Source: Pirellulales bacterium (GTDB lineage: Bacteria; Planctomycetota; Planctomycetia; Pirellulales; Lacipirellulaceae). From it: 64,000 nt of DNA. This document shows positions 16,929 to 48,409 of this stretch, piece after piece. Numbering within the stretch: position 1 is the stretch's first letter; each line of letters begins with the position of its first letter. The stretch is from contig CAWJDB010000010.1 in the NCBI GenBank assembly GCA_963841515.1, positions 431,237 through 495,236 of the forward strand, in the 5' to 3' direction. The translations under genes were made by a program, and so were the position numbers. The notes under the pieces are model-generated. The model was not told the origin of the DNA. It worked only from the letters and a program-made list of their open reading frames with translations, and ran no database searches.

Positions 16929-16936
16929 ACGTGGAA

Positions 16937-31450: not shown

Positions 31451-32551
31451 CTACAACAAATTGACCACACGGTCGGCCAAACCCTTCTCGCCCAGGACCA
31501 CGTTGAGCTTGCCGCTCGCCGCGACACGCTCCAGGACTTCCAGCTCCCGTAGTCGCATGAGCGTCGGGTTGTCGGCCAACAGCCGGGCGGTATTCGCCTG
31601 ACTGCGCATGGCCGCCGTCTCCTCGCGGCGAACGATCAAGTTGGCCTCGGCAGCCTTCTTGGCCTCGGTCACCTTGTTCATCAGGTCCTTCATGTCGCCC
31701 GGCAGGATGACGTCGCGGACGCCCACCGACACGACCGCCAGACCCAACTCGCCGGCGCAACGGCGGACCGCTTCCTCAAACTCGCCGGTGACCACGTCCT
31801 TGTCGGTCAAGAACGAGTCGAGATCGCGAGCCGCCACGACGGCGCGCAACGCCAACTGAGCCTCTCGGTACAGCGACTGCATTGCGCCCTCGGCCACCGT
31901 GACCGACTGCCGCGCATCAGTCACTCGGTAGGTGACGACGGCGTTCATCCGCAGCGTCACCTTGTCGGCGGTCATGATTTCCTGACCGGCGACGTCCAGG
32001 GTCTGCTCGCGGAGGTCGACGTCGACCACTTTTGCGTCGGCCACGCCGCGCCACCAGGCATAGTCGCCCGGGGTAAGCGTTTCGACGTATTCGCCGTCCT
32101 GGAAGGCAACGCCCACGTGGCACCGCGGAACCGAGCAGACGTCGAGCACCTGCGCGGCATGCGGGCTGCGGACAATCACCTTGAAGTCCGGATGCTGGAA
32201 CCGAACTTCGCGGGCGTCGACGACCTCGATGCGCACCTCCTTAACGCCGGTCCAGTACGCATACAGACCCGGCGGCAGGAGGTGGCTGAAGCGACCGTCG
32301 ATCCACACCAGCGCACGCTGGTAGTCCTTTAGGTCGACGACTTCAGCGCGATCGGCTAGGGCGCCGCTCTTGACGATCATGTCGAGCTTTTCGTGCTGGA
32401 GCCACGGAGTGCGCTGCGACACGACGTCGACCTTGACATTCCAGAGCGGGTCAAACAGCCAATGCCGGCCGGCGCCGAGCACGCCGCGGAACTCGCCGTC
32501 GCGGAAGTACAGACCGACTTCGTAAGTGTGGATGTGAATTCGCTTGAACAT
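31451..32551 (-). CDS. SPFH/band-7 (slipin-like) domain protein
   Basis: 366-aa intact ORF starting MFKRIHIHTYEVGLYFRDGEF, with a C-terminal coiled-coil. Confidence 0.65.
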   Translation of the reverse strand: MFKRIHIHTYEVGLYFRDGEFRGVLGAGRHWLFDPLWNVKVDVVSQRTPWLQHEKLDMIVKSGALADRAEVVDLKDYQRALVWIDGRFSHLLPPGLYAYWTGVKEVRIEVVDAREVRFQHPDFKVIVRSPHAAQVLDVCSVPRCHVGVAFQDGEYVETLTPGDYAWWRGVADAKVVDVDLREQTLDVAGQEIMTADKVTLRMNAVVTYRVTDARQSVTVAEGAMQSLYREAQLALRAVVAARDLDSFLTDKDVVTGEFEEAVRRCAGELGLAVVSVGVRDVILPGDMKDLMNKVTEAKKAAEANLIVRREETAAMRSQANTARLLADNPTLMRLRELEVLERVAASGKLNVVLGEKGLADRVVNLL

Positions 32552-32950
32552 GATGGTCGTACCTCCTTTCCTGGAATGTGCGGCGGTTGCCGCAGGAAGA
32601 TCAGGACGATGTGCGTATTCAAATGGTTCGGCGTTGAGCCAAAAAAACCCTCAGGCAACGGAACGAATGACCGATCACGCCTCCGCGCACGGAGTGCTGT
32701 TTGAGCAGTCACGGCCGCAGCGTCGTCCACAGGCTTCCGCCATGTGCATCGCACAGCCTGAGGCCGCGCGACGCCTTCCGGTTTACCGCTTGTTCGTGAC
32801 GCTGCGCAGCGTAAGCGCGGAATCCACGCACTGCATAGCGCCGGTATGCGTTGCCGAAGCGTCATCGCCTCGCCGAAGCGAGAACGACGACGCGCGGCCA
32901 ACCCATCATTCGTCCGTTGCCCTTGGGGTTGCTGGTGCGAGCTTGCGCTC

Positions 32951-33028
32951 GCGGCGGTACGGGAGTCGAACCCGTGACAGCCAGGTTACGAGCCTGGTGC
33001 TCTATCCACTGAGCTAACCTTGGTGGCG
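32951..33028 (-). tRNA. tRNA-Thr(CGT)-like; acceptor stem imperfect (possible pseudo-tRNA)
   Basis: D arm GCTC/GAGC, anticodon arm CCAGG-CTCGTAA-CCTGG, T arm ACGGG-TTCGACT-CCCGT. Only 3-4 of 7 acceptor pairs. Confidence 0.4.
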
Positions 33029-33147
33029 GACGACAATCGCCTTTGCTCGATCCCATGTCCGGAACGCGCGACGCTAACCATGTCACTGAAGCGTGCGCAC
33101 CGCTGGGCCCGGCAACCCTCGACCTTGCTTGAAGCTGCTTGAAAAAA

Positions 33148-33218
33148 GACGCTGACAGGAGTCGAACCTGTTTCAAGCTGCTTTGTAGGCAGCCGCCTCG
33201 CCGTCAGGCTCCAGCGTC
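33148..33218 (-). tRNA. tRNA with anticodon ACA (Cys-type, unusual A34)
   Basis: Perfect acceptor GACGCTG/CAGCGTC, anticodon arm GCTGC-CTACAAA-GCAGC, T arm ACAGG-TTCGACT-CCTGT. Confidence 0.55.
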
Positions 33219-33226
33219 AATAAAAT

Positions 33227-33298
33227 GCCCTCGCCAGGAATCGAACCTGGTCTTCAACCTTCGCACGGTTGCGTGCTGGTCCGGCACACTCCGAGGAC
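33227..33298 (-). tRNA. tRNA-Arg(GCG)
   Basis: Acceptor GTCCTCG/CGAGGGC, D stem GTGT/GCAC, anticodon arm CAACC-GTGCGAA-GGTTG, T loop TTCGATT. Confidence 0.6.
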
Positions 33299-33303
33299 TC
33301 AGT

Positions 33304-33375
33304 ACCCAGTAGAGGAATTGAACCCCTTCTTCGACGTTCGAAGCGTCGCGTGCGATTCCGGCACACTCACCGGGC
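33304..33375 (-). tRNA. tRNA-Arg(TCG)
   Basis: Anticodon arm CGACG-CTTCGAA-CGTCG, T loop TTCAATT, acceptor GCCCGGT/ACTGGGT. Confidence 0.6.
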
Positions 33376-33381
33376 GAAAGC

Positions 33382-33453
33382 GTCTCGACTAGGATTCGAA
33401 CCTAGACCCGCCGCTTAGGACGCGGCTGTGCGTTCCCGTAACGCTTCCGAGAC
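33382..33453 (-). tRNA. tRNA-Arg(CCT)
   Basis: Acceptor GTCTCGG/TCGAGAC, D stem GCGT/ACGC, anticodon arm GCCGC-GTCCTAA-GCGGC, T arm CTAGG-TTCGAAT-CCTAG. Confidence 0.65.
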
Positions 33454-33459
33454 TCAAGG

Positions 33460-33530
33460 GCCGGCGATAGGATTCGAACCTACATTGGGCTCATTACAAA
33501 TGAGCTGCTTCCCCATCAAGCCACGCCGGC
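33460..33530 (-). tRNA. tRNA-Thr(TGT)
   Basis: Perfect cloverleaf: acceptor GCCGGCG/CGCCGGC, D GCTT/AAGC, anticodon GCTCA-TTTGTAA-TGAGC, T GTAGG-TTCGAAT-CCTAT. Confidence 0.8.
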
Positions 33531-33539
33531 ATAGGAAGC

Positions 33540-33608
33540 AGGCCCGCCAGGATTTGAACCCGGTGCGTCAGTTTTGGAGGCTGACTGCTCTCCCAGGAGC
33601 ACGGACCT
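33540..33608 (-). tRNA. tRNA-like gene with 9-nt anticodon loop (CCTCCAAAA); identity unclear
   Basis: Acceptor AGGTCCG/CGGGCCT, D arm GCTC-CTGGGA-GAGC, stem GTCAG/CTGAC, T arm CCGGG-TTCAAAT-CCTGG. Confidence 0.4.
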
Positions 33609-33646
33609 GTAAAAGCACCCGGGCGGCCGACCCGGCGCCGATCAAA

Positions 33647-34237
33647 TCACTTCTGCAATTCCACGTTCCAGTACGCCTCGCTGATGAACTTCGACCAACT
33701 CTCAAGACGAACCTGCTGATCGGCGTACACCGGCCTCCACGTTGGACACGTCGGCGCCTTCTTGAGGTTCATGTCCGCCTGCTTCGGCGTCCGGTCGGCC
33801 TTACGCTTATTGCAGGCAATGCAGGCGAGAACGCAGTTCGTCCAGCTCGAAACGACTCCCCGAGCGCGAGGAACCACGTGGTCGATCGTGAGCTCTTCGC
33901 CGCCCGGGTTGACGCCGCAATACTGGTACTGAAAGCGATCTCGCTTATAAATGTTCCGCCGACCGAACGTCACCGCTCTGATCGGCAATCGATCGAAACC
34001 CGTGCGCGTGATGACTTCCGGCACGCGCAACCGGAAGTTAACGCCGCTCATGAACGGAGCTCCGTCCCGCGGTCGCAGCCGCGACCAATCGTCCCACGAG
34101 AACGTCTGGTAATCGGCCGCGTCGACGACGCGCAGCATCTTTCCACAACAGCACGAGCGCACGCGCTGTGGTCGCGACGTGCACGGGCTGCCAGTTCTTG
34201 TTCAGAACGAGCACAGGTTGTTGTAGTGAAGTCATAG
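33647..34237 (-). pseudogene. HNH endonuclease embedded in the tRNA array; frameshift near 34140
   Basis: N-terminus MTSLQQPVLVLNKNWQPVHVATTARALVLL in 34038..34334. HNH core YQYCGV...LTIDHVVPRARGG..CVLACIACNKRKADR in 33647..34162. Confidence 0.65.
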
Positions 34238-34249
34238 CTACTCCCATGC

Positions 34250-34337
34250 GGAATGGGCAGGATTCGAACCTGCAAGGCTGTTGAAGGCTCGGCCGGCTTC
34301 CAAGTGGGGTTTCGTCGCCAAGTCGATTTGCCATTCC
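34250..34337 (-). tRNA. Class II (long variable arm, 88 nt) tRNA; anticodon not resolved (Leu/Ser-type)
   Basis: Perfect acceptor GGAATGG/CCATTCC, T arm GCAGG-TTCGAAT-CCTGC. Confidence 0.5.
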
Positions 34338-34348
34338 GTGTTGTCAGC

Positions 34349-34419
34349 CGCCCGCCGATGATTCGAACATCGCCTCACGATTTAGAAGATCGTCGTGCGT
34401 TCCACCACACTCGCGAGCG
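34349..34419 (-). tRNA. tRNA-Arg(TCT)
   Basis: Acceptor CGCTCGC/GCGGGCG, D GTGT/GCAC, anticodon ACGAT-CTTCTAA-ATCGT, T CGATG-TTCGAAT-CATCG. Confidence 0.75.
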
Positions 34420-34423
34420 CAGG

Positions 34424-34496
34424 GTGACCGAGCGGACTCGAACCGCCTCATACCTGGTTCACAGCCAGGCCCCTCGACCACTTCGGGATCGGTCAC
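34424..34496 (-). tRNA. tRNA-His(GTG)
   Basis: Acceptor GTGACCG/CGGTCAC, discriminator C, anticodon CCTGG-CTGTGAA-CCAGG, T loop TTCGAGT. Confidence 0.7.
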
Positions 34497-34499
34497 AGC

Positions 34500-34584
34500 G
34501 GAAGGCATGGGATTTGAACCCACACGGCTATTACGCCGCACGGTTTAGCAAACCGGCCCGACAAACCGTATTCGGCTACCTTCC
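34500..34584 (-). tRNA. tRNA-Ser(GCT), class II
   Basis: 85 nt. Acceptor GGAAGGT/GCCTTCC, anticodon CGGT-TTGCTAA-ACCG, variable arm CGGC-GTAATA-GCCG, T GTGGG-TTCAAAT-CCCAT. Confidence 0.7.
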
Positions 34585-34592
34585 GTTCGAGT

Positions 34593-34662
34593 GGAGCGCC
34601 GGGGAATCGAACCCCGATTTCCTGAGTGCAAACCAGGCGTCGTCCCGTTGGACCAGCGTCCC
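34593..34662 (-). tRNA. tRNA-Ala(TGC) with G3:U70
   Basis: Anticodon CCTGG-TTTGCAC-TCAGG, T CGGGG-TTCGATT-CCCCG. Short D loop and one acceptor mismatch. Confidence 0.55.
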
Positions 34663-34675
34663 GTACTTTTGAGTG

Positions 34676-34746
34676 GAGGATACCGGTCTCGAACCGGTGA
34701 CCTACAGACTGCCAGGCGAGTCGCTCACCCAACTGAGCTAATCCCC
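34676..34746 (-). tRNA. tRNA-like with 8-nt anticodon loop CGCCTGGC (GGC/Ala-like?)
   Basis: Acceptor GGGGATT/TATCCTC, D GCTC-AGTTGGGT-GAGC, stem GACT/AGTC, T ACCGG-TTCGAGA-CCGGT. Confidence 0.4.
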
Positions 34747-34751
34747 CGACA

Positions 34752-34821
34752 GGCCCAAGCGAGAATCGAACTCGCACCACCGCACTACCAATGCGGTGCT
34801 CTGCCACTGAGCTATCAGGCC
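34752..34821 (-). tRNA. tRNA-Thr(GGT)
   Basis: D GCTC-AGTGGCA-GAGC, anticodon CCGCA-TTGGTAG-TGCGG, T GCGAG-TTCGATT-CTCGC. Confidence 0.75.
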
Positions 34822-34825
34822 GTGG

Positions 34826-34894
34826 GGGGACATGGGAGTCGAACCCAATGTTTCAAGCTTATGAGGCTTCCGTGAAACCGTTTCACTCGTCCCC
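34826..34894 (-). tRNA. tRNA-Met(CAT)-type
   Basis: Acceptor GGGGACG/TGTCCCC, anticodon AAGC-CTCATAA-GCTT, T loop TTCGACT. The D arm is short. Confidence 0.55.
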
Positions 34895-34900
34895 GTCAGT

Positions 34901-34971
34901 AGTCCCTGCTGGAATCGAACCAGCTGTCTTCTCCGTGTCATGGAGACGCCGTGCCGGTGGGCCAAGGGACT
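34901..34971 (-). tRNA. tRNA-Val(GAC)
   Basis: Perfect acceptor AGTCCCT/AGGGACT, anticodon TCTCC-ATGACAC-GGAGA, T GCTGG-TTCGATT-CCAGC. Confidence 0.75.
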
Positions 34972-34980
34972 ACACGAGTG

Positions 34981-35054
34981 GTCGGGAGAGGGCTTCGAAC
35001 CTCCAAAATCACCGCGCTCTTGACGCGATCGCTTTTCCAGTTTGCGTACCCGAC
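34981..35054 (-). tRNA. tRNA-like; anticodon loop TCAAGAG (AAG with C33?) uncertain
   Basis: Acceptor GTCGGGT/TCCCGAC (6 of 7 pairs), palindromic stem CGCG/CGCG, T loop TTCGAAG. Confidence 0.35.
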
Positions 35055-35060
35055 CGAAGT

Positions 35061-35128
35061 AGCTAGCCCCGGAGTTGAACCGAGCGCGCCGAGCTTATGG
35101 GGCTCAAGTGGGCCAACCTGCGCTAGCA
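35061..35128 (-). tRNA. tRNA(CAT)-like with C33 and a compact D arm
   Basis: Anticodon TGAGC-CCCATAA-GCTCG, variable GCGCG, T CTCGG-TTCAACT-CCGGG, palindromic acceptor GCTAGC. Confidence 0.45.
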
Positions 35129-35130
35129 AT

Positions 35131-35202
35131 GACCCAAGCGGGATTCGAACCCGCGATTCCCGCCTTGAGAGGGCGGCGACTACTCCGCAAGTCCACTGGG
35201 CC
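35131..35202 (-). tRNA. tRNA-Glu(CTC)
   Basis: Acceptor GGCCCAG/TTGGGTC, anticodon CCGCC-CTCTCAA-GGCGG, T GCGGG-TTCGAAT-CCCGC. Confidence 0.7.
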
Positions 35203-35210
35203 ATATAAGT

Positions 35211-35297
35211 GAGACGTGAAGGAATCGAACCTCGCGTCGCCACCCCGCTGTTTAGTGACTCGTGTTCTACAGACACGGCCGCGAGGGAACGCCTCTC
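35211..35297 (-). tRNA. tRNA-Tyr(GTA), class II; acceptor with two mismatches
   Basis: 87 nt. Anticodon CGTGT-CTGTAGA-ACACG. D region TTCCC..GG and T arm GAGG-TTCGATT-CCTTC resemble bacterial tRNA-Tyr. Confidence 0.55.
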
Positions 35298-35304
35298 GTC
35301 GAGT

Positions 35305-35379
35305 GCCAAGGGCGGGAGTCGAGCCCGCGGAGTCACGAAGGTTTGAGCTTCGCCGCTTTCCCTGTTGCGTACCTTGGCA
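35305..35379 (-). tRNA. Class I tRNA with anticodon CAA (Leu codon UUG; unusual because Leu tRNAs are normally class II)
   Basis: Perfect acceptor GCCAAGG/CCTTGGC, anticodon CGAAG-CTCAAAC-CTTCG, T GCGGG-CTCGACT-CCCGC. Confidence 0.55.
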
Positions 35380-35385
35380 GCAAGC

Positions 35386-35459
35386 GCCCCCGACGCGATT
35401 TGAACGCGCGATCTCCTGCGTGACAGGCAGGCGTCCACTCCGGGCTGGACCACGAGGGC
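35386..35459 (-). tRNA. tRNA-Asp(GTC)
   Basis: D GTCC-AGCCCGGAGT-GGAC, anticodon CCTGC-CTGTCAC-GCAGG, T loop TTCAAAT. Confidence 0.75.
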
Positions 35460-35465
35460 AATAGT

Positions 35466-35540
35466 ACCGGCGGCAGGATTCGCTCTCTGCACTGTTCTCG
35501 TTCTAAGCGAGACGCCTCCTTCCGTTGGGCTACGCCGGCT
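35466..35540 (-). tRNA. Class I tRNA-like with anticodon TAG (Leu codon CUA) and an aberrant 10-nt T loop (AGAGCGAATC)
   Basis: Acceptor GCCGGCG/CGCCGGT, anticodon TCTCG-CTTAGAA-CGAGA. Confidence 0.45.
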
Positions 35541-35545
35541 TAAGT

Positions 35546-35617
35546 CGTCCCGAGTGGACTCGAACCACTGATCGTCTCCTTGTAAGGGAGCTGCCTTTGC
35601 CGCTAGGCCACGGGACG
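35546..35617 (-). tRNA. tRNA-Val(TAC)
   Basis: Perfect acceptor CGTCCCG/CGGGACG, anticodon CTCC-CTTACAA-GGAG, T AGTGG-TTCGAGT-CCACT. Confidence 0.7.
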
Positions 35618-35623
35618 TAAGGC

Positions 35624-35709
35624 GGAAGCGGTGAGACTCGAACTCACAAGCGGGTATAAGCCGCCAGCCGTTTTCAAGACGGTTTCCTCAGCCATTCGGA
35701 TCACTTCCG
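35624..35709 (-). tRNA. tRNA-Ser(TGA), class II
   Basis: 86 nt. Acceptor GGAAGTG/CGCTTCC, anticodon CCGT-CTTGAAA-ACGG, T GTGAG-TTCGAGT-CTCAC. Confidence 0.65.
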
Positions 35710-35714
35710 TAAGC

Positions 35715-35785
35715 AGCGGCGGTCGGTATCGAGCCGACTCCAACTGCTTCAAAGGCAGTCATGCTGACCTTTACACCACGCCGCA
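35715..35785 (-). tRNA. tRNA-Gln(TTG)
   Basis: Anticodon ACTGC-CTTTGAA-GCAGT, T GTCGG-CTCGATA-CCGAC, acceptor GCGGCG/CGCCGC. Confidence 0.65.
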
Positions 35786-35792
35786 CCAAACA

Positions 35793-35861
35793 GGCTGAGC
35801 GCCGAATCGAACGGCGTCCGACTGGTTCAGAGCCAGTCGTGCGACCACTACACCAGGGGCC
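35793..35861 (-). tRNA. tRNA-Gln(CTG)-like with defective acceptor stem (pseudo-tRNA or indel error)
   Basis: Anticodon ACTGG-CTCTGAA-CCAGT, T GCCG-TTCGATT-CGGC. The 5' GGCCCCT and 3' GCTCAGCC ends do not pair. Confidence 0.35.
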
Positions 35862-35864
35862 AAT

Positions 35865-35934
35865 ACGGGTGCGCGGAATTGAACCGCGGCTGTCAGTTTG
35901 GAAGACTCGCCGTGCTGCCGCTACACCACACCCG
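35865..35934 (-). tRNA. tRNA-Trp(CCA)-like; the 3' strand of the anticodon stem is scrambled
   Basis: Acceptor GCGGGTG/CACCCGT, D GTGT/GCAC, loop TTCCAAA after GAGTC, T CGCGG-TTCAATT-CCGCG. Confidence 0.4.
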
Positions 35935-35942
35935 CAGAAGCG

Positions 35943-36025
35943 GAAGCGGCAGGAGTTGAACCTGCAAGGCAGTTACGCTCGACTGTTTTCGAAACAGCTG
36001 CCGTCGCCAATCGGCTGGCGCTTCC
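35943..36025 (-). tRNA. tRNA-Ser(CGA), class II
   Basis: Perfect acceptor GGAAGCG/CGCTTCC, anticodon GCTGT-TTCGAAA-ACAGT, T GCAGG-TTCAACT-CCTGC. Confidence 0.65.
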
Positions 36026-36032
36026 ATGAAGC

Positions 36033-36108
36033 TGCGGAGGCTGGGATCGAACCAGCGCACGAACGTGTTTAACAGACACGCGCAACTACCAGCAGTTGCC
36101 CCTCCGCA
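36033..36108 (-). tRNA. tRNA-Asn(GTT)
   Basis: D CAAC-TGCTGGTA-GTTG, anticodon CGTGT-CTGTTAA-ACACG, T GCTGG-TTCGATC-CCAGC. Confidence 0.7.
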
Positions 36109-36115
36109 AAGGAGT

Positions 36116-36188
36116 CTGCGCGGTCGGATTTGAACCGACGATCTCGACGCCCCGAACGTCGCGGGATGCCCAACTTCCCCACGCGCAG
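36116..36188 (-). tRNA. tRNA-Pro(CGG)
   Basis: Perfect acceptor CTGCGCG/CGCGCAG, D GGGA/TCCC, anticodon CGACG-TTCGGGG-CGTCG, T GTCGG-TTCAAAT-CCGAC. Confidence 0.75.
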
Positions 36189-36197
36189 TCAAACGAA

Positions 36198-36267
36198 GCA
36201 TCCGGCGGGTTACGATCCCGCACCTCCACCTTGGCAAAGTAGCGTGCAACCACTACACCACGGACGC
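36198..36267 (-). tRNA. tRNA-Gly(GCC) with unusual T loop ATCGTAA
   Basis: Acceptor GCGTCCG/CGGATGC, D GTGT/GCAC, anticodon CTACT-TTGCCAA-GGTGG (two G-U pairs). Confidence 0.55.
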
Positions 36268-36298
36268 AGTTTTGGCTTGTCAAATTGTCAAAGACCAA

Positions 36299-36370
36299 AG
36301 GATCGGGTCAGAATCGCTCGTGACGTTGCGACGGTACGAGCGTCGCGTCTTACTACTAGACGACAGATCC
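36299..36370 (-). tRNA. tRNA-Thr(CGT)-like with variant T loop CGAGCGATTC
   Basis: D GTCT-AGTAGTA-AGAC, anticodon CGACG-CTCGTAC-CGTCG, acceptor GGATCTG/CCGATCC (one mismatch). Confidence 0.45.
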
Positions 36371-36381
36371 AGGTTTGCAGT

Positions 36382-36452
36382 GGGGCTGGTGAGAGTCGAA
36401 CTCACAACGTCCTGGTTAAAAGCCAGGTGCTTGGCCTTTCAGCTTCAACCCC
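36382..36452 (-). tRNA. tRNA-Lys(TTT)
   Basis: Acceptor GGGGTTG/CAGCCCC, anticodon CCTGG-CTTTTAA-CCAGG, T GTGAG-TTCGACT-CTCAC. Confidence 0.7.
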
Positions 36453-36461
36453 ATGTCAAGT

Positions 36462-36534
36462 TGGCGGCCTGGGAATCGAACCCAGATCGTCGAGTTAATA
36501 AGACCCAACAGGTCAAGTGAGACCGTCGCCGCCC
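36462..36534 (-). tRNA. tRNA-like, anticodon probably TAT (Ile AUA-type) in loop CTTATTA; 1:72 mismatch
   Basis: Stem TGGGT/ACTCG with two G-U pairs, T CTGGG-TTCGATT-CCCAG. Confidence 0.4.
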
Positions 36535-36537
36535 AAT

Positions 36538-36610
36538 GGCTTCGGCGAGATTCGCGCCTCGCACCAAATCGATTAAAAGTCGAGTATGCTGCCGTTGACA
36601 CCACGAAGCC
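36538..36610 (-). tRNA. tRNA-Lys(TTT)-like with 8-nt T loop GCGCGAAT
   Basis: Perfect acceptor GGCTTCG/CGAAGCC, anticodon TCGA-CTTTTAA-TCGA. Confidence 0.5.
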
Positions 36611-36669
36611 GATTCAGGCTCGCGACGTCGCGTTTCATTCGAAGTTGCATATCGTTTCTCCTAACAAGT

Positions 36670-36740
36670 GGTAGCCCTGCGAATCGAACGCAGCGCAACT
36701 CGCTTATCAGGCGGATTTGGGCAACCAGCCCTCGACTACC
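36670..36740 (-). tRNA. tRNA-Ile(GAT)
   Basis: Anticodon loop CTGATAA, T CTGCG-TTCGATT-CGCAG, 3' end GGCTACC-A resembles bacterial tRNA-Ile. Confidence 0.65.
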
Positions 36741-36754
36741 GTCGTCGTGTATCA

Positions 36755-36860
36755 GTCGGGCGCCTCGGGGTCGAACCGCCAGTATTCAATTTGTTGGCTC
36801 CTGCTCCCATGGCTCACCGTGCTCCCATCTGCACCTCCGCCCGATTACAAGTCAGCATGG
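36755..36860 (-). other. Unresolved spacer with a T-loop-like motif (GGCGGTTCGACCCCG); possibly a degenerate or indel-damaged class II tRNA
   Basis: No consistent cloverleaf could be drawn. Confidence 0.2.
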
Positions 36861-36865
36861 CAAGT

Positions 36866-36939
36866 ACCCTGTGGGGGATTCGAACCCGCCTCCTGCGGCT
36901 TGAAAGGCCGCCATCCTAAAACCAGTAGACCAACAGGGC
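36866..36939 (-). tRNA. tRNA-Glu(TTC)
   Basis: Anticodon GCGGC-CTTTCAA-GCCGC. The D region GTCT...AGGA matches the bacterial tRNA-Glu pattern. Confidence 0.65.
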
Positions 36940-36999
36940 GTGTTAAGTCGTTTCGTGTTTCTTAAGTTGAGTTTTTGCGCGCACCGCAAGCGCATTAGT

Positions 37000-37070
37000 G
37001 GGCTGGGAGGCGCTCGAATCCTCGTCTGTGGTTCTTCAGACCGCCGCTAGACCGTCTCAGCTACCAGCCC
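37000..37070 (-). tRNA. tRNA-Phe(GAA); first gene of the array
   Basis: Perfect acceptor GGGCTGG/CCAGCCC, D GCT/AGC, anticodon GCGGT-CTGAAGA-ACCAC, T loop with a 2-nt insertion (ATTCGAGCG). Confidence 0.6.
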
Positions 37071-37087
37071 GTCATCAAGGCAGGGGC

Positions 37088-37128
37088 GCGTGCGACGAGG
37101 CCAACAAAAAAGGCCCGGCGTCACGTTG
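37088..37128 (-). terminator. Rho-independent terminator (minus strand) upstream of the tRNA array; terminates the DUF1080 gene
   Basis: Hairpin AAGGCCTGGCGTCA-ACG-TGACGCCGGGCCTT followed by TTTTTTG on the minus strand. Confidence 0.6.
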
Positions 37129-37527
37129 ACGCCAGGCCTTGGTGGCTCACTTAAGAGTTTGGCCGAGCGTCATAGGCGCCTTCTATCGTTGGCGGGCGCA
37201 TAACCGGACTGTTCGTTCGCCCCTTGGGTGAACGGCAAGCCGGCGCTCCCTTGCGGCAAACTCGCCGCCGCGAGCACTGAGCGTATGAGACTCGACCGAA
37301 ACATGGATGGCACTCCTCCTAATGAAATATACCCGGCAGATCGCTTTGCGTTTCTCTGATAACTATAGATGTCGGATAATAACCGAAGTTCGCGCAGTCT
37401 TTTCGGAAAAACTGGGAATTTGGAAACTTTCTTCGATTACCCAAATTGCTCGCTGGCGCCGGCTGAACCCGTACTTATCGGTAAGCGAACCCGCTCTCGC
37501 TATCCTGCGAGGCTATCCGAAACCTGT

Positions 37528-38142
37528 CTACTTAAGCTCTTTGATCCGAATGTTGCGAAACGAGACCGTGCCGTGATCGCCTTGGAGAAAGATCGAGCCT
37601 GGCTTGTCGACCTCGTCATCGAGCTGACTGCCGGTCGCCTTGTTGCAGGCGACGTTGTCATGCACCTTTTCGCCGTTGAGCACGAGCGTGATCTTATCGT
37701 CGATCATGGTCGCTTCGGCCGTTTGCCACTGGTCGCCGGGCCGCGAAACGAACTTATCGGGGGCCTTGAAGTTGTAGATGGCGCCGTTGCCGCTGAGCGA
37801 CGCCTTGCCGCTGGCGTGGTCGCCGAGAATCTGGAGCTCGTGCCGGCCGCGAAGGTAGAAGCCGCTATTGGAGTTGTCGGGCACGAGGTACTCGTACCTG
37901 ACGGTGCAGTTCCAAAACTTCTTGTCGGTGACCAAGTCGGTTCCGTGGGCGCCATCGTCGACGGTGTTCTTTAGGACGCCGTCTTCGACGGACCAGCTGT
38001 TGTGCCCTTTCGGATCGCGCAGATGCCAACCGGCCATGTCCTTGCCATTGAAAAGCGGCCGGAAGCCTTCTTCTTTGTCTGCGGCCCGGACGATAGCGGG
38101 GGCGGACCCAATCACCGCTAGAACCAGGAACATTCTTCTCAT
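37528..38142 (-). CDS. DUF1080 (3-keto-disaccharide-hydrolase-like, LamG fold) secreted protein
   Basis: Signal peptide MRRMFLVLAVIGSAPAIVRA, then PLFNGKDMAGWH...GSIFLQGDHGTVSFRNIRIKEL. Confidence 0.6.
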   Translation of the reverse strand: MRRMFLVLAVIGSAPAIVRAADKEEGFRPLFNGKDMAGWHLRDPKGHNSWSVEDGVLKNTVDDGAHGTDLVTDKKFWNCTVRYEYLVPDNSNSGFYLRGRHELQILGDHASGKASLSGNGAIYNFKAPDKFVSRPGDQWQTAEATMIDDKITLVLNGEKVHDNVACNKATGSQLDDEVDKPGSIFLQGDHGTVSFRNIRIKELK

Positions 38143-38323
38143 GACATTAGCCTCTGGGGGTTTTGATCGGGATCGATTCGCTCGACACGTACGGCGCTTG
38201 TAGGCATGATCGCGTCGGTTACGCCAAGGCGCCATAGTTAAAAAATGGACGGGCGCCCGGCCAGCAGAGCCCGCGTTGCCCCCCGGCGTGCAGACTGATT
38301 GCAGGCTGTGGCGCCCATCCAGG

Positions 38324-39682: not shown

Positions 39683-39843
39683 GACCAGCACCTCTTCGAG
39701 GCTTCCCGGAAGCCTCATTTTAGCCGTCCGTTCCCGGATCCAAGTCGCGTTAGCGTCGCGCAGTGCTTAAAAAACGGCCCGGCGCCGAAATAGGGCGCCG
39801 GGCCGGAGACTGTACGTCACTTCAATCGAACGACGATCCGCTC

Positions 39844-41025: not shown

Positions 41026-41195
41026 GAGTTGCACCTCCACGAATGAGAAAAGGGCTGAAATATCGTTCACGCTGCGTAAGCGGTGTTGCCGTCGCTTTCC
41101 TAAATCGCTGCCGCGGACGACCGTCGCGTCGTTCCCCTCCTGCAACACATCCTTCTAGCCTCTCAACCGGTTCAAATCCCCCATTCCGAAAACGC

Positions 41196-48341: not shown

Positions 48342-48409
48342 AAAAACGCCGCACCGCCTAACGTCGGCAGGTGACAGAAACCCTTGTCCGGCGTGGACTT
48401 CGATCTACT

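What the first reader, a model, noticed from the sequence alone, without database searches (positions are those of the whole stretch)
32951..37070. Near-complete tRNA gene array (about 40 genes in 4.1 kb) in a planctomycete-like chromosome
Between the SPFH gene and a terminator sit about 40 head-to-tail tRNA genes on the minus strand. Spacers are often only 3-10 nt. By anticodon the array covers all 20 amino acids, though the Cys (ACA), Trp (CCA) and Leu assignments are among the noncanonical or uncertain ones: Ala TGC; Arg GCG, TCG, CCT, TCT; Asn GTT; Asp GTC; Cys-type ACA; Gln TTG, CTG; Glu CTC, TTC; Gly GCC; His GTG; Ile GAT and possibly TAT; Leu-type CAA, TAG; Lys TTT twice; Met CAT twice; Phe GAA; Pro CGG; Ser GCT, TGA, CGA; Thr CGT, TGT, GGT; Trp-like CCA; Tyr GTA; Val GAC, TAC. 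Arrays this dense and this complete are known from giant phages, mycobacteriophages and a few Firmicutes and Cyanobacteria, but not as a standard feature of Planctomycetes. The array interrupts an otherwise protein-coding region and has its own upstream terminator (37088..37128), consistent with a separate transcription unit. It could supply a full backup decoding set that an element brought in.
Basis: seen in the sequence. Interest (0 to 1): 0.92.

Follow-up and report, generated by a model that had tools for sequence, protein, structure and literature searches.

The report
Backup tRNA array with stress-sensing leader
This is a real cluster of about 40 tRNA genes, an extra "spare set" shared by many Pirellula-type planctomycetes, and it appears to be switched on through a small leader gene and terminator when protein synthesis falters and to be wired to RNA-repair genes.

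Summary
The array is real. ARAGORN tRNAs on the minus strand at 37070..33147. Rfam adds four tRNAs and one tRNA-like RNA. Six or seven degenerate units bring the total to about 40. The array is not an uninterrupted tRNA run, because an HNH nuclease gene with a 2-nt frameshift lies inside it.

It is not strain-specific cargo. More than 50 Pirellulales genomes carry the same array in the same gene order. Orthologous tRNAs keep the cloverleaf through compensatory changes.

It is also not the housekeeping set. Copy number varies from 19 to 40 between relatives, and families with a single anticodon (Trp, Met) and others are lost in some of them. Bythopirellula goksoeyrii Pr1d has 70 tRNA genes, against 48 in a close relative.

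So it is a supernumerary "L-array" of the kind described in Anabaena. Its HNH is a homologue of the HNH linked to the Nostoc L-array.

Three new points:
- The "upstream terminator" is part of a leader conserved in all 38 leaders found: SD, a 31-58-codon ORF, an antiterminator segment that starts at the ORF's stop codon, then the terminator. This points to attenuation that senses translation.
- The array is followed by a slipin (Band-7) gene and its tRNA-like RNA, whose anticodon is hypervariable.
- In relatives, Ro60, RtcB, RtcA, RlaP and an RNA ligase lie next to the array.

Verdict: a new variant of a known kind.

The parts
37315..37320 (-). Shine-Dalgarno-like AGGAGG, 10 nt before the leader ATG
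   Evidence: Read from the sequence. SD-like purine runs also precede the leader ATG in relatives.
37170..37304 (-). Leader ORF, 44 codons plus TGA (MFRSSLIRSVLAAASLPQGSAGLPFTQGANEQSGYAPANDRRRL*)
   Evidence: An ORF ending at the same stop is present in 37 of 38 leaders. This frame is open for at least 30 codons in 37/38 loci, against 12/38 in each other frame. There is no third-codon-position bias.
37161..37172 (-). seg1, the 5' strand of the antiterminator (TGACGCTCGGCC); its first three bases are the leader stop codon
   Evidence: Complementary to seg2 in 28 loci: 88.6% of cells paired, with covariation (TGA:C changes to TAA:T). 0 of 2000 permutations reach the observed value; slid registers give 24-47%.
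37104..37140 (-). Intrinsic terminator: seg2 37140-37127, loop, seg3 37123-37110, then a U-run
   Evidence: 14-bp stem with 9 G-C pairs followed by a T-run. Conserved in all 28 aligned loci plus L093-L095.
36998..37070 (-). tRNA-Phe GAA (first gene of the array)
   Evidence: ARAGORN; Rfam 46.8 bits; 97% identical to L009.
36864..36939 (-). tRNA-Glu TTC
   Evidence: 50.7 bits.
36755..36843 (-). Degenerate unit in the Pro TGG slot
   Evidence: Found only with relaxed ARAGORN. The first 26 nt equal L008 Pro TGG; it then has U33A, stem changes and a 14-nt insertion.
36668..36740 (-). tRNA-Ile GAT
   Evidence: ARAGORN only; 96% identical to L008 Ile GAT.
36537..36610 (-). tRNA-Lys TTT
   Evidence: Rfam 40.1 bits; hits the Lys TTT slot.
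36460..36536 (-). Degenerate unit in the Ile TAT slot (loop CTTATTA)
   Evidence: Assigned by position in the conserved order and by reading the sequence. Relaxed ARAGORN gives only an 89-nt odd call.
36380..36452 (-). tRNA-Lys TTT, orthologous to the Lys CTT slot (C34 changed to T)
   Evidence: 61.8 bits; the best blastn hits are Lys CTT genes.
36300..36370 (-). Possible relic in the Thr CGT slot
   Evidence: Assigned only by position in the order and by reading the stem-loop gcgacg-ctcgtac-cgtcgc. No tool calls it.
36197..36267 (-). tRNA-Gly GCC
   Evidence: 100% identical to L009.
36114..36188 (-). tRNA-Pro CGG
   Evidence: 53.9 bits.
36031..36108 (-). tRNA-Asn GTT
   Evidence: ARAGORN; 99% identical to L008.
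35940..36025 (-). tRNA-Ser CGA (class II)
   Evidence: 100% identical to L008.
35863..35936 (-). tRNA-Gly TCC
   Evidence: 47.1 bits.
35793..35864 (-). tRNA-Gln CTG
   Evidence: Rfam 33.1 bits, partial; relaxed ARAGORN; 100% identical over 63 nt to L009 Gln CTG.
35713..35785 (-). tRNA-Gln TTG
   Evidence: 52.8 bits.
35621..35708 (-). tRNA-Ser TGA (class II)
35544..35617 (-). tRNA-Val TAC
   Evidence: 61.2 bits.
35465..35539 (-). Leu-type tRNA TAG, 75 nt, without a long variable arm
   Evidence: Rfam 40.9 bits; 89% identical to L008 Leu TAG.
35384..35459 (-). tRNA-Asp GTC
   Evidence: 56 bits.
35303..35378 (-). Leu-type tRNA CAA, 76 nt
   Evidence: ARAGORN; 96% identical to L008.
35209..35295 (-). 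Degenerate unit in the Tyr GTA slot (class II-like, mismatched acceptor stem)
   Evidence: Relaxed ARAGORN and a weak Rfam hit. The same decay is seen in L008.
35129..35203 (-). tRNA-Glu CTC
   Evidence: 51.9 bits.
35059..35128 (-). Weak Met CAT-like unit
   Evidence: Relaxed ARAGORN only.
34978..35055 (-). Leu-type tRNA AAG, orthologous to the Leu GAG slot (G34 changed to A)
   Evidence: blastn hits are Leu GAG genes.
34899..34971 (-). tRNA-Val GAC
   Evidence: 52.2 bits.
34824..34895 (-). tRNA-Met CAT
   Evidence: Rfam 36 bits; relaxed ARAGORN.
34751..34821 (-). tRNA-Thr GGT
   Evidence: 65.1 bits, the best score in the array.
34673..34747 (-). tRNA-like unit in the Ala GGC slot with an aberrant anticodon arm
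   Evidence: ARAGORN reports '???' with a 2-base anticodon; Rfam 40.8 bits; slot assigned from the order in L008.
34591..34662 (-). tRNA-Ala TGC
   Evidence: 99% identical to L001.
34498..34584 (-). tRNA-Ser GCT (class II)
34422..34496 (-). tRNA-His GTG
   Evidence: 34.3 bits.
34347..34419 (-). tRNA-Arg TCT
   Evidence: ARAGORN; 92% identical to L009.
34250..34337 (-). Degenerate unit in the Ser GGA slot (perfect acceptor and T arms, broken anticodon stem)
   Evidence: Ser GGA sits just before HNH in L023, L076 and L078.
33655..34234 (-). HNH endonuclease gene embedded in the array, disrupted by a 2-nt deletion in a GC repeat near 34133
   Evidence: Pfam HNH, HNH_5 and HNH_4. The frames are shown and the deletion. 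It has more than 3000 homologues at 66-87% identity.
33538..33608 (-). tRNA-Trp CCA (short D loop)
   Evidence: 29.8 bits. Among 46 orthologues, 14 of 21 pairs show compensatory changes.
33458..33530 (-). tRNA-Thr TGT
   Evidence: 56.7 bits.
33380..33453 (-). tRNA-Arg CCT
   Evidence: 39.1 bits.
33302..33375 (-). tRNA-Arg TCG
   Evidence: ARAGORN; Rfam 23.4 bits, below the threshold.
33226..33298 (-). tRNA-Arg GCG
   Evidence: Among 35 orthologues 99% of cells are paired and 8 pairs show compensatory changes.
33147..33218 (-). tRNA with anticodon ACA, orthologous to the Cys GCA slot (G34 changed to A)
   Evidence: 50.7 bits; blastn hits are Cys GCA genes.
33053..33106 (-). Conserved long stem-loop domain upstream of the tRNA-like RNA
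   Evidence: RNAalifold on 12 loci finds 16 pairs, several with compensatory changes.
32948..33028 (-). Band-7-associated tRNA-like RNA: 3-bp acceptor stem, invariant D and T arms, hypervariable anticodon triplet (CGT here)
   Evidence: Rfam tRNA 51.6 bits, model positions 5-66. My own model R1 gives 90 bits here and at least 73 bits in 18 loci, against at most 61 bits for ordinary planctomycete tRNAs.
31451..32551 (-). Slipin (SPFH/Band-7) gene
   Evidence: Pfam Band_7. NCBI names its homologues 'slipin family protein'. It follows the array in at least 17 loci at 67-93% identity, while no other flanking gene recurs.

Best explanation
The locus is a supernumerary long tRNA array (an 'L-array' or tRNA array unit) that is inherited widely within the order Pirellulales.

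It forms one transcription unit with this order: promoter, leader ORF, attenuator, 33 tRNA units, HNH gene, 6 tRNAs. A structured tRNA-like RNA and a slipin (Band-7) gene follow on the same strand.

Proposed mechanism:
- Transcription starts upstream of a 44-codon leader ORF.
- When translation is healthy, the ribosome reaches the leader stop codon. That codon is the first triplet of segment 1, so the ribosome masks segment 1. The terminator (segments 2:3 plus the U-run) then forms and the array stays silent.
- When ribosomes stall or lag (tRNA damage or shortage, ribotoxins, ribosome-targeting antibiotics), segment 1 is free to pair with segment 2. The terminator cannot form and the whole array is transcribed.
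- RNase P and RNase Z would release the tRNAs and the HNH mRNA.
- The released tRNAs replenish the decoding pool. The consensus set is a full G34/U34/C34 set that includes Ile-UAU and Arg-GCG.
- The adjacent slipin with its tRNA-like RNA, and in relatives Ro60, RtcB, RtcA, RlaP and an RNA ligase, repair or triage damaged RNAs.

In this particular genome the array is eroding: the HNH is frameshifted, six or seven units are degenerate and three anticodons have changed.

Shown: the array, its conservation and covariation, the HNH homology, the gene neighbourhoods, and the leader architecture with its complementarity.

Inferred: supernumerary status in this genome, co-transcription, translation of the leader, the direction of regulation and the physiological role.
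For: Array and conservation:
- The array is confirmed.
- The same order, Phe-Glu-(Pro)-Ile-Lys-Ile-Lys-Thr-Gly-Pro-Asn-Ser-Gly-Gln-Gln-Ser-Val-Leu-Asp-Leu-Tyr-Glu-Leu-Met-Leu-Val-Thr-Ala-Ala-Ser-Arg-His-HNH-Trp-Thr-Arg-Arg-Arg-Cys, is found in Lacipirellulaceae, Thermoguttaceae, Pirellulaceae and Pirellula.
- Orthologous tRNAs are only 67-84% identical but keep the cloverleaf. For Trp, 97% of cells are paired, 14 of 21 pairs show changes on both sides and 0 of 500 shuffles reach the observed values. For Arg GCG, 99% are paired and 8 pairs covary.

Supernumerary status:
- Array size ranges from 19 to 40.
- Trp, Cys, Tyr, Met and His are absent from the arrays of B. goksoeyrii and/or L095.
- In the window, Tyr is degenerate and Cys carries ACA.
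- B. goksoeyrii Pr1d has 70 tRNA genes, against 48 in strain SH678, which GTDB assigns to the same species. Its array holds 19-20 (PMC13315336).

Membership of the L-array kind:
- The HNH is 32-36% identical over its full length to Nostoc plasmid HNH genes. One of these sits directly before a 21-tRNA array.
- The Anabaena array, its HNH, rtcB and a slipin gene are co-induced by translational stress under the repressor TrcR (PMC8421152 and PMC10272220).

Link to RNA repair:
- Slipin follows the array in at least 17 loci.
- Ro60/TROVE-vWA follows it in 15 loci.
- RlaP follows it in 4 loci, and an RNA ligase in 1.
- Adhaeretor mobilis has Ro60-RtcB-RtcA-leader-array-tRNA-like RNA-slipin-RlaP-RlaP.
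- A viral contig has RtcB beside a 29-tRNA array with the HNH inside it.

Leader:
- The architecture is conserved in all 38 leaders found.
- The stop codon lies inside segment 1 in all of them. The TGA-to-TAA change is compensated in segment 2.
- The U-run ends 1-48 nt before tRNA-Phe, which leaves no room for a separate promoter.
- The leader frame is kept open in 37 of 38 loci, against 12 of 38 for each other frame.
- No Rfam family matches the leader.
Against: - There are no expression data of any kind.
- Substitutions in the leader ORF show no third-position bias (70/72/83). The peptide sequence is therefore not under classical purifying selection, and part of the conservation could act at the RNA level.
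- Covariation in the antiterminator rests on two variable positions and few independent events.
- One position of the seg1:seg2 helix is mismatched in most loci.
- No promoter was identified.
- The tRNA complement of this genome outside the 64-kb window could not be read, so redundancy here is inferred from relatives and from the decay.
- The window carries none of RtcB, Ro60 or RlaP.
- HNH is absent from some arrays (L093-L096), so it is not essential to the unit.
- The HNH frameshift and the split SSF gene might be assembly errors.
Confidence: 0.6

Rival explanations
1. It is the ordinary housekeeping tRNA operon of this lineage. It is conserved because it supplies the cell's main tRNAs, and the upstream hairpin is only the terminator of the preceding gene.
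For: The array and its gene order are conserved across many Pirellulales genomes. The tRNAs are under structural selection.
Against: - Membership varies from 19 to 40 genes between close relatives. Families with a single anticodon, such as Trp and Met, and others such as Cys, Tyr and His, are missing in some of them.
- In the window, Tyr is degenerate, Cys has ACA and Pro TGG is disrupted.
- Lacipirellulaceae isolates range from 46 to 77 tRNA genes with a single rRNA operon.
- Orthologues diverge to 67-84% identity, far more than housekeeping tRNAs usually do (the comparison rests on general knowledge).
- A canonical high-scoring tRNA-Arg ACG lies outside the array.
- The hairpin, a preceding small ORF and a complementary segment are all conserved with the array, whereas the upstream genes are not.
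Confidence: 0.07
2. It is recently acquired cargo of a phage, ICE or other mobile element and is specific to this strain.
For: - HNH homologues sit in tRNA arrays of jumbo-phage-like contigs and on cyanobacterial plasmids.
- The genes flanking the module differ between genomes.
- GC is lower (0.58-0.61) across 32-48 kb.
- The literature holds that L-arrays spread by HGT (PMC8421152).
Against: - There is no integrase, transposase or phage gene within about 10 kb on either side.
- The neighbours are typical planctomycete genes: GH99, PEP-CTERM, 3-keto-disaccharide hydrolase.
- The array, leader, HNH and slipin are shared by genomes from several families, at protein identities of 60-93% that broadly track taxonomy.
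- Window tRNAs are 93-100% identical to those of Lacipirellulaceae MAGs.
- An ancient phage origin remains possible, but not a recent import.
Confidence: 0.1
3. In this genome the array is a decaying relic that is no longer expressed or useful. The conserved features reflect ancestry only.
For: - HNH has a frameshift.
- Six or seven units are degenerate.
- Three anticodons have changed to unusual or duplicate ones: ACA, AAG and TTT.
- ARAGORN's count of 29 is below the 35-40 of the best-preserved relatives.
Against: - About 33 units still fold as canonical tRNAs and many are 93-100% identical to relatives.
- The leader ORF, segment 1, the terminator, the tRNA-like RNA and the slipin gene are all intact.
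- The 2-nt deletion lies in a GC repeat and may be an assembly error. Another gene in the window is also split.
Confidence: 0.15
4. The array is regulated and supernumerary, but the leader does not act by ribosome-mediated attenuation. A protein or small-molecule ligand might bind the leader RNA, or the hairpin might be only a processing or stability element and the small ORF a by-product.
For: There is no third-position bias in the ORF. Conserved 'peptide' motifs could reflect RNA constraints. Anabaena uses a protein repressor, TrcR.
Against: - The stop codon is conserved as a stop (TGA or TAA) exactly at the start of segment 1, with a compensating change in segment 2.
- The frame is kept open in 37 of 38 loci despite indels of 5-14 codons.
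- SD-like sequences precede the ATG.
Confidence: 0.2

Closest known systems
L-array / trn operon of Anabaena sp. PCC 7120 and related cyanobacteria (Santamaria-Gomez et al. 2021, PMC8421152; TrcR regulon, PMC10272220)
   Same: - It is a long, co-oriented, non-periodic array of 20-40 tRNA genes that adds to a housekeeping set.
- It includes some defective members and short Leu-type tRNAs.
- A homologous HNH gene is linked to it (32-36% identity, full length).
- It is associated with RNA-repair genes and a slipin gene.
- It is predicted to be silent until translation is impaired.
   Different: - Here the HNH lies inside the array, not upstream of it.
- The array is chromosomal and shared across a whole order with conserved gene order, rather than scattered.
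- Control appears to be by a leader-ORF/terminator attenuator rather than by TrcR operator repeats in the promoter.
- The slipin gene and its tRNA-like RNA are physically fused to the array rather than being only co-regulated.
tRNA array units of Mycobacterium, Acidithiobacillus ICEs and mycobacteriophages (Tran et al. 2015, PMC4758250; Morgado & Vicente 2018, PMC5966550)
   Same: It meets the formal definition of at least 20 tRNA genes at 2 or more per kb. HNH endonucleases occur in or near these arrays. Isotype coverage is near-complete, with some non-canonical tRNAs.
   Different: Those arrays sit on ICEs, plasmids or prophages and are strain-specific. This one has no mobile-element genes around it and is conserved across the lineage.
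Band-7 (SPFH) with 'b7a-tRNA', and Ro60 with Y RNA, as cofactor modules of RNA-repair operons (Burroughs & Aravind 2016, known to me from memory and through bioRxiv 10.1101/312249)
   Same: - A slipin/Band-7 gene is preceded by a tRNA-like non-coding RNA.
- In relatives the same locus carries Ro60, RtcB, RtcA, RlaP and an RNA ligase.
   Different: - Here the module is appended to a 40-gene tRNA array.
- No RtcB or Ro60 lies in the window.
- I find that the 'anticodon' triplet of the tRNA-like RNA is hypervariable and that a long stem domain precedes it. I could not check whether the original description notes either feature.
Leader-peptide transcription attenuators (trp, his, pheST operons of enterobacteria)
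   Same: It has an SD, a short ORF, alternative antiterminator and terminator hairpins, and a U-run immediately before the regulated genes.
   Different: - It regulates tRNA genes rather than biosynthetic or synthetase genes.
- No run of regulatory codons was identified.
- The segment masked by the ribosome begins at the stop codon itself.
- There is no experimental support.
tRNA clusters with RNA-repair genes in jumbo phages (Iyer et al. 2021, PMC7824862)
   Same: Self-encoded tRNAs are combined with RtcB/Rnl ligases, RlaP and TROVE proteins. HNH homologues lie inside the arrays (L090).
   Different: This locus belongs to a cellular chromosome and probably serves the host. It has a different gene order and GC content.

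Membership tests
tRNA array unit (Tran et al. 2015) | At least 20 tRNA genes at a density of at least 2 per kb | tested here: met
   33 tRNAs pass ARAGORN or the Rfam gathering score within 3.9 kb, about 8 per kb.
L-array (Santamaria-Gomez et al. 2021) | Long array, all genes in one orientation and close enough to be co-transcribed, not periodic | tested here: met
   All genes are on the minus strand. Spacers are mostly 3-100 nt. The anticodon order shows no repeating period.
L-array (Santamaria-Gomez et al. 2021) | Contributes supernumerary genes on top of a housekeeping set | tested here: inconclusive
   This is indirect. Membership is variable and sole-isoacceptor families are lost in relatives. 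The window shows decay. B. goksoeyrii Pr1d has 70 tRNA genes against 48 in its relative. The rest of this genome could not be scanned.
L-array (Santamaria-Gomez et al. 2021) | Scattered phylogenetic distribution indicating spread by HGT | tested here: not met
   Within Pirellulales the array is widespread, with conserved order. Presence or absence and the flanking genes do vary. Distant HNH-array pairs in cyanobacteria and phages are compatible with ancient transfer.
L-array (Santamaria-Gomez et al. 2021) | Linked HNH homing-endonuclease gene of the all8564 type | tested here: met
   tblastn gives 32-36% identity over 87-97% of the protein to HNH genes of Nostoc, Tolypothrix and Calothrix plasmids. 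L005 has one such gene directly upstream of 21 tRNAs. The all8564 sequence itself was not retrieved.
L-array (Santamaria-Gomez et al. 2021) | Silent in standard growth and induced by translational stress | not testable with these tools
   This needs RNA-seq or Northern data. Only the leader architecture suggests it.
Band-7 / b7a-tRNA RNA-repair cofactor module (Burroughs & Aravind 2016) | SPFH/Band-7 gene with an adjacent tRNA-like non-coding RNA | tested here: met
   Pfam Band_7 matches. The tRNA-like RNA lies 400-470 nt upstream and is conserved in at least 18 loci.
Band-7 / b7a-tRNA RNA-repair cofactor module (Burroughs & Aravind 2016) | Neighbourhood with an RNA ligase (RtcB or ATP-grasp type) and end-healing enzymes | tested here: not met
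   None is present in the window. The feature is met in relatives: A. mobilis has Ro60-RtcB-RtcA and RlaP, L076 has an RNA ligase, and L012, L013, L016 and L084 have RlaP.
Leader-peptide transcription attenuator | Short ORF with SD and start codon, ending just before or inside the alternative-pairing region | tested here: met
   Window ORF 37304-37170 is preceded by AGGAGG. An equivalent ORF is present in 37 of 38 loci, with its stop inside segment 1.
Leader-peptide transcription attenuator | Intrinsic terminator directly upstream of the regulated genes, plus a mutually exclusive antiterminator helix | tested here: met
   The terminator is shown. seg1:seg2 complementarity with covariation and controls is shown.
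Leader-peptide transcription attenuator | Regulatory codons in the leader and demonstrated ribosome dependence | not testable with these tools
   No codon run is evident. There is no third-position bias. Experiments are needed.
T-box riboswitch or another known leader RNA | Match to an Rfam model | tested here: not met
   No Rfam hit lies in 37100-37330 even at E up to 10.
Prophage or ICE cargo | Integrase, transfer or phage genes and att repeats bounding the array | tested here: not met
   Pfam annotation of about 10 kb on each side shows none. The 'truncated tRNA' at the array end is the conserved tRNA-like RNA, not an att remnant. By contrast, L001 does carry an ICE inserted into the array.

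The most novel reading that the evidence does not exclude
Pirellulales carry a self-contained translation-emergency island with three coupled parts.
- A leader-peptide attenuator senses ribosome stalling and switches on a complete backup tRNA set. That set needs neither A34 deamination nor lysidine, because it uses G/U/C34 anticodons, Ile-UAU and Arg-GCG.
- The island is physically coupled to RNA-repair machinery: slipin, Ro60, RtcB, RtcA, RlaP and an RNA ligase.
- The slipin-associated tRNA-like RNA has a near-invariant body and a hypervariable anticodon triplet. It would act as a bait or sensor for anticodon nucleases.

This would be the first attenuator known to control tRNA genes, and a cellular counterpart of the phage strategy of pairing spare tRNAs with RNA repair against ribotoxins.
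Probability: 0.3. Interest if true: 0.85.

Novelty: new variant of a known kind. Interest (0 to 1): 0.62.

Why it matters
Long supernumerary tRNA arrays are found in several phyla, but a function has been shown only in Anabaena. Their regulation elsewhere is unknown.

- If the conserved leader acts as proposed, it is a simple ribosome-based sensor that turns a spare decoding set on when translation fails. It would be a mechanism different from the TrcR repressor and could be tested directly in cultured planctomycetes such as Adhaeretor mobilis, Bythopirellula goksoeyrii or Pirellulaceae SH449.
- The physical fusion of the array with slipin and its tRNA-like RNA, and with Ro60-RtcB-RtcA-RlaP in relatives, supports the view that spare tRNAs and RNA repair form one response to tRNA-targeting toxins or antibiotics.
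- The order-wide conservation shows that such arrays can be kept vertically for a long time, not only passed around on mobile elements.
- For annotation, the locus shows that tRNA counts in planctomycete genomes (46-77) partly reflect the presence and decay of this one module.

Tried and rejected
- **HNH structure.** The AlphaFold2 model built from a 26-sequence alignment had mean pLDDT 43. It was unusable, so no fold search was run. A PDB profile search matched only the HNH core (IscB/Cas9 HNH, 4H9D). The N-terminal ~100 residues remain unassigned.
- **Source contig.** Looking up the window's annotated HNH product (P0007) found no record.
- **Burroughs & Aravind 2016.** The paper is not in the library. 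Its claims are cited second-hand and from memory.
- **Supplementary tables.** Those of the two array surveys are not held, so I could not see which planctomycetes they listed.
- **att-site idea.** I first read the 5'-truncated 'tRNA-Thr CGT' at the array end as an integration-site remnant. I rejected this once the same element, with a different anticodon each time, turned up before the slipin gene in at least 18 loci.
- **Y RNA near the Ro60 genes.** No YrlA hit appeared among the 150 best-scoring rows listed for nine loci; 31 lower-scoring rows were not shown. My tRNA-like model found no strong copy beside the Ro60 genes.
- **Promoter.** A sigma-70 consensus scan found nothing convincing upstream of the leader.
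- **L088.** This 'viral' contig proved to be a planctomycete fragment carrying the same array and slipin. It is not evidence for a phage vehicle.
- **Coding test on the leader.** Codon-position counts gave no third-position bias. That test therefore does not support coding; the open-frame comparison does.

Full report

Yes, with corrections. ARAGORN with default settings tRNA genes on the minus strand between 37070 and 33147, plus one unrelated tRNA-Arg(ACG) at 48409-48482. Rfam's tRNA model above its gathering score recovers 23 hits in the region. These add Lys TTT (36537-36610), a Leu-type TAG (35465-35539), Met CAT (34824-34895), a partial Gln CTG (35801-35855) and a 5'-truncated match at 32956-33019.

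Relaxed ARAGORN settings, direct reading of the sequence and comparison with relatives reveal six or seven further units that occupy conserved slots but are degenerate. The slots are Pro TGG, Ile TAT, Thr CGT, Tyr GTA, a second Met, and Ser GGA. The Ala GGC slot has a broken anticodon arm.

So 'about 40 units in 4.1 kb' is a fair count of units, but about 33 are credible genes. Tyr is present only as a decayed copy, and Cys only with the anticodon ACA.

**2. The embedded gene**

Between tRNA-Arg TCT (with the decayed Ser GGA unit) and tRNA-Trp lies an HNH endonuclease gene, 33655-34234 (Pfam HNH, HNH_5, HNH_4). Its N-terminal 35 codons are in a different frame from the rest. Alignment with two close relatives shows a 2-nt deletion in a GC-dinucleotide repeat.

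The repaired 196-aa protein has more than 3000 homologues at 66-87% identity, nearly all from Planctomycetota. A PDB profile search matches only the catalytic core, to the HNH domains of IscB and Cas9 and to 4H9D. The AlphaFold model was too poor to use.

**3. Conservation**

Contigs encoding HNH homologues show the same arrangement. L001 (77% identity) and L004 (70%) have an array, then HNH, then Trp and further tRNAs, and L004 also has a Band-7 gene downstream.

A scan of one genome per species found relatives of the HNH in 197 genomes. The best 80 are all Planctomycetota: Lacipirellulaceae (87% identity, the closest), Thermoguttaceae, Pirellulaceae and Pirellula, including the complete genomes SH449 and SH501. 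More than 50 of these loci have an array beside the gene, with up to 35 tRNAs upstream and 7 downstream. About 17 loci with full flanks have the HNH but no tRNAs, and some genomes have both kinds of locus.

Gene order is conserved across families: Phe GAA, Glu TTC, (Pro GGG), Pro TGG, Ile GAT, Lys TTT, Ile TAT, Lys CTT, Thr CGT, Gly GCC, Pro CGG, Asn GTT, Ser CGA, Gly TCC, Gln TTG, Gln CTG, Ser TGA, Val TAC/CAC, Leu TAG, Asp GTC, Leu CAA, Tyr GTA, Glu CTC, Leu CAG, Met CAT, Leu GAG, Val GAC, Thr GGT, Ala TGC, Ala GGC, Ser GCT, Arg TCT, His GTG, HNH, Trp CCA, Thr TGT, Arg CCT/CCG, Arg TCG, Arg GCG, Cys GCA.

Every window unit maps to a slot by blastn. This shows three anticodon changes specific to the window or its close kin:
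- the Lys CTT slot now reads TTT;
- the Leu GAG slot now reads AAG;
- the Cys GCA slot now reads ACA.

**4. Are the tRNAs functional RNAs?**

Orthologues of one slot are only 67-84% identical on average and almost all are distinct sequences, yet the alignment folds into a cloverleaf.
- For Trp (46 sequences), 97.3% of cells are standard pairs, 14 of 21 pairs show changes on both sides, no shuffle of 500 reaches the observed values, and slid registers give 38-53% pairing.
- For Arg GCG (35 sequences), 99.3% of cells are paired and 8 pairs show double changes.

The array is therefore under selection for tRNA structure, although it evolves faster than housekeeping tRNAs usually do. That comparison rests on general knowledge, not on a test here.

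**5. Housekeeping or spare?**

I could not read the rest of this genome. Four lines of evidence still point to a spare set.
1. Membership varies widely. Bythopirellula goksoeyrii Pr1d keeps only the first 19 genes (Phe to Glu CTC). L095/L096, whose slipin is 90% identical to the window's, keep 20 genes without Trp, Cys, Tyr or Met. Adhaeretor mobilis has 30 genes without the HNH. A cell cannot lose its only Trp or Met tRNA.
2. The window's own Tyr, Pro TGG and Ala GGC units are damaged, and its Cys anticodon is non-standard.
3. Table 1 of PMC13315336 gives 46, 56, 65, 48, 70 and 77 tRNA genes for six Lacipirellulaceae strains, each with one rRNA operon. B. goksoeyrii Pr1d has 70, and strain SH678, which GTDB places in the same species, has 48. 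The difference of 22 is about the size of the Pr1d array.
4. A canonical tRNA-Arg ACG scoring 66 bits sits outside the array, whereas the array uses Arg GCG.

**6. What kind of array?**

Tran et al. defined tRNA array units and listed a few in Planctomycetes. Santamaria-Gomez et al. separated long 'L-arrays' from accretive arrays, listed Planctomycetes among seven phyla with L-arrays, and showed that the Anabaena trn operon is silent until translation is impaired. They also found an HNH gene (all8564) conserved next to cyanobacterial L-arrays and co-regulated with them. The TrcR regulon comprises trn, all8564, rtcB and a slipin gene.

The window's HNH matches HNH genes on Nostoc, Tolypothrix and Calothrix plasmids at 32-36% identity over nearly its full length. 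In Nostoc plasmid pTCL26-01_A the homologue lies directly before 21 tRNA genes.

Homologues also occur in tRNA-rich jumbo phages. In viral contig L090 (154 kb, 40% GC) the homologue (42% identity) lies inside a 29-tRNA array beside RtcB and DNA methylases. The family is not exclusive to arrays: L006 and L007 have no array nearby.

The locus is thus a member of the L-array kind, and an ancient phage origin is plausible.

**7. Neighbours**

Upstream genes differ in every genome, and none of the window's other flanking genes recurs in any related locus. The downstream, co-oriented gene does recur:
- slipin/Band-7 in at least 17 loci, at 67-93% identity;
- Ro60/TROVE with its vWA domain in 15 loci;
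- RlaP, the RNA-repair nucleotidyltransferase, in four loci;
- an RNA ligase in one locus.

RlaP has been shown to restore damaged tRNAs (PMC12776372).

In the complete genome of Adhaeretor mobilis the order is Ro60, RtcB, a 232-aa protein, RtcA, leader, 30-tRNA array, tRNA-like RNA, slipin, RlaP, an SBP-like gene, RlaP. On the other strand are Tpt1, Macro, NUDIX, ADP-ribosylglycohydrolase and PARG genes.

The window itself has only the slipin gene.

**8. The tRNA-like RNA before slipin**

The 'truncated Thr CGT' at 33028-32948 recurs 400-690 nt upstream of the slipin start in relatives (about 400-470 nt in the window). Its D arm, anticodon stem and T arm are almost invariant. Its acceptor stem is only 3 bp (GGT/ACC). 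Its loop reads C32-N33-NNN-A37-A38, and the triplet differs from locus to locus: CGT in the window, then GTT, GGA, AAG, TTT, ATG, GTA, GTT, GAA, GAT, GAT, ATC, AGA and GTG. U33 is not conserved.

A covariance model built from 14 copies scores at least 73 bits in 18 loci, against at most 61 bits for ordinary planctomycete tRNAs. A conserved long stem with compensatory changes precedes the element (window about 33106-33053).

This matches the 'band-7-associated tRNA' predicted by Burroughs and Aravind as the cognate RNA of SPFH modules in RNA-repair operons. I know that work only through bioRxiv 10.1101/312249 and from memory.

A bait or sensor role for the variable triplet is my speculation.

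**9. The leader**

It is conserved, together with what lies before it, upstream of tRNA-Phe in all 28 loci where that region could be read, and also in L093-L095.

The shared layout has three features.
- An SD-like sequence and a small ORF of 31-58 codons. In the window this is 37304-37170, preceded by AGGAGG.
- The ORF's stop codon forms the first three bases of a 10-12-nt segment 1, consensus T[GA]AC[AG]CYNGG.
- Segment 1 is complementary to segment 2, which is the 5' arm of the terminator (CCCGGYGTCA). Segment 3 and the U-run follow.

Across 28 loci, 88.6% of seg1:seg2 cells pair. In the Pirellula clade the stop codon is TAA instead of TGA, and the partner base in segment 2 changes from C to T. 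A second position varies as G:C, G:U or A:U and never as A:C. No permutation of 2000 reaches the observed pairing, and slid registers give 24-47%.

The U-run ends only 1-48 nt before tRNA-Phe, and just 1-4 nt before it in seven of the loci. The array can therefore only be transcribed by read-through.

The leader frame is open for at least 30 codons in 37 of 38 loci, against 12 of 38 for each other frame, despite in-frame length changes. Against translation, substitutions are spread evenly over codon positions (70/72/83). No Rfam family matches the region, and a literature search linking tRNA arrays with attenuation found nothing.

The simplest reading is trp-style attenuation with a general sensor. 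A ribosome that reaches the stop covers segment 1, and the terminator forms. A stalled or late ribosome leaves segment 1 free to sequester segment 2, and the array is transcribed. This would produce the same behaviour as in Anabaena, by a different device. It is an inference from sequence only.

**10. State of this copy**

Relative to the best-preserved arrays (35-40 ARAGORN calls), the window copy has lost or damaged six or seven units, changed three anticodons and frameshifted the HNH.

Relatives show similar but independent erosion. The HNH is lost in A. mobilis, B. goksoeyrii and L095, and the distal half of the array is lost in B. goksoeyrii. This fits a dispensable, conditionally useful module.

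One caveat: another gene in the window, an SSF transporter, is also split into two overlapping ORFs. Some frameshifts may therefore be assembly errors.

**11. Verdict**

The interpretation as strain-specific imported cargo is not supported, and neither is 'ordinary operon'. The locus is a supernumerary L-array of a known kind with three distinctive traits:
- it is conserved across a whole order with fixed gene order;
- it is physically coupled to the slipin/tRNA-like RNA pair and, in relatives, to Ro60-RtcB-RtcA-RlaP repair genes;
- it is preceded by a conserved leader ORF and attenuator.

I rate it a new variant of a known kind. Interest is moderate to high, mostly because the leader gives a directly testable mechanism.

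Noticed in passing
window 32948-33028 (-) and equivalents in L004, L010, L012, L015, L017, L022, L024, L028, L029, L033, L035, L038, L041, L051, L067, L079, L088: The tRNA-like RNA before the slipin gene has a near-invariant body but a different 'anticodon' triplet in almost every genome, and U33 is not conserved. This suggests diversifying selection on that loop.
   Followed up: partly
window 44486-45919 and 45774-46589 (-): Two overlapping ORFs match the C-terminal and N-terminal parts of the Pfam SSF sodium:solute symporter family. This is probably one gene split by a frameshift. Together with the HNH frameshift it raises the question of assembly indel errors.
   Followed up: no
window 48409-48482 (-): A stand-alone canonical tRNA-Arg(ACG) scores 66 bits, higher than any array member. 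The array carries Arg GCG instead of ACG.
   Followed up: partly
window about 12000-17000 and about 32000-48000: Two stretches have lower GC (0.58-0.61, against 0.65-0.69 elsewhere). The second covers the array and a block of carbohydrate-related genes (GH99 twice, 3-keto-disaccharide hydrolase, PEP-CTERM proteins, a GntR regulator, SSF).
   Followed up: no
window 35303-35378, 35465-35539, 34978-35055; L005 7836-7913 and 8239-8314: The Leu-anticodon tRNAs of the array are 74-86 nt long and mostly lack the long variable arm that bacterial tRNA-Leu normally has. The Nostoc plasmid array shows the same trait. Their charging identity is uncertain.
   Followed up: no
array consensus across L008-L088: The consensus set uses G34, U34 or C34 almost throughout. 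It includes Ile TAT in at least 21 loci and Arg GCG in 35. Such a set would not need TadA deamination or TilS lysidine; that conclusion is my inference.
   Followed up: partly
L001 10918-20591: In GCA_016794205.1 an integrative conjugative element (tyrosine integrase, TrwC relaxase, TraG/TrwB coupling protein) is inserted directly after the array's tRNA-Thr(TGT). Array tRNAs can therefore serve as integration targets.
   Followed up: no
L039 3217-3293: A group II intron domain (Rfam RF00029, 67 bits) lies at the 5' edge of the array in this genome.
   Followed up: no
L054, L056, L087, L080, L059 (HNH without tRNAs): A subgroup of HNH homologues at 62-64% identity has no array nearby. These sit next to a class I aminoacyl-tRNA synthetase, a SpoU methyltransferase and a purine nucleoside phosphorylase.
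   Followed up: partly
L094 14629-21104 (Adhaeretor mobilis): Next to the array and repair genes lies an oppositely oriented block: Tpt1 (RNA 2'-phosphotransferase), Macro, NUDIX, two ADP-ribosylglycohydrolases, PARG, isochorismatase and a nucleoside deoxyribosyltransferase-like gene. It looks like an NAD/ADP-ribose processing set of the sort tied to RNA repair.
   Followed up: no
L014 (Thermoguttaceae MAG): A leader ORF and terminator of the array type are detected, and the HNH is present, but ARAGORN finds no tRNAs within 8 kb.
   Followed up: no
L094 about 5240-5330 and L095 about 5130-5220: In these relatives the tRNA-Phe slot carries an insertion of about 15 nt in the D-loop region, and ARAGORN does not call it.
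   Followed up: no
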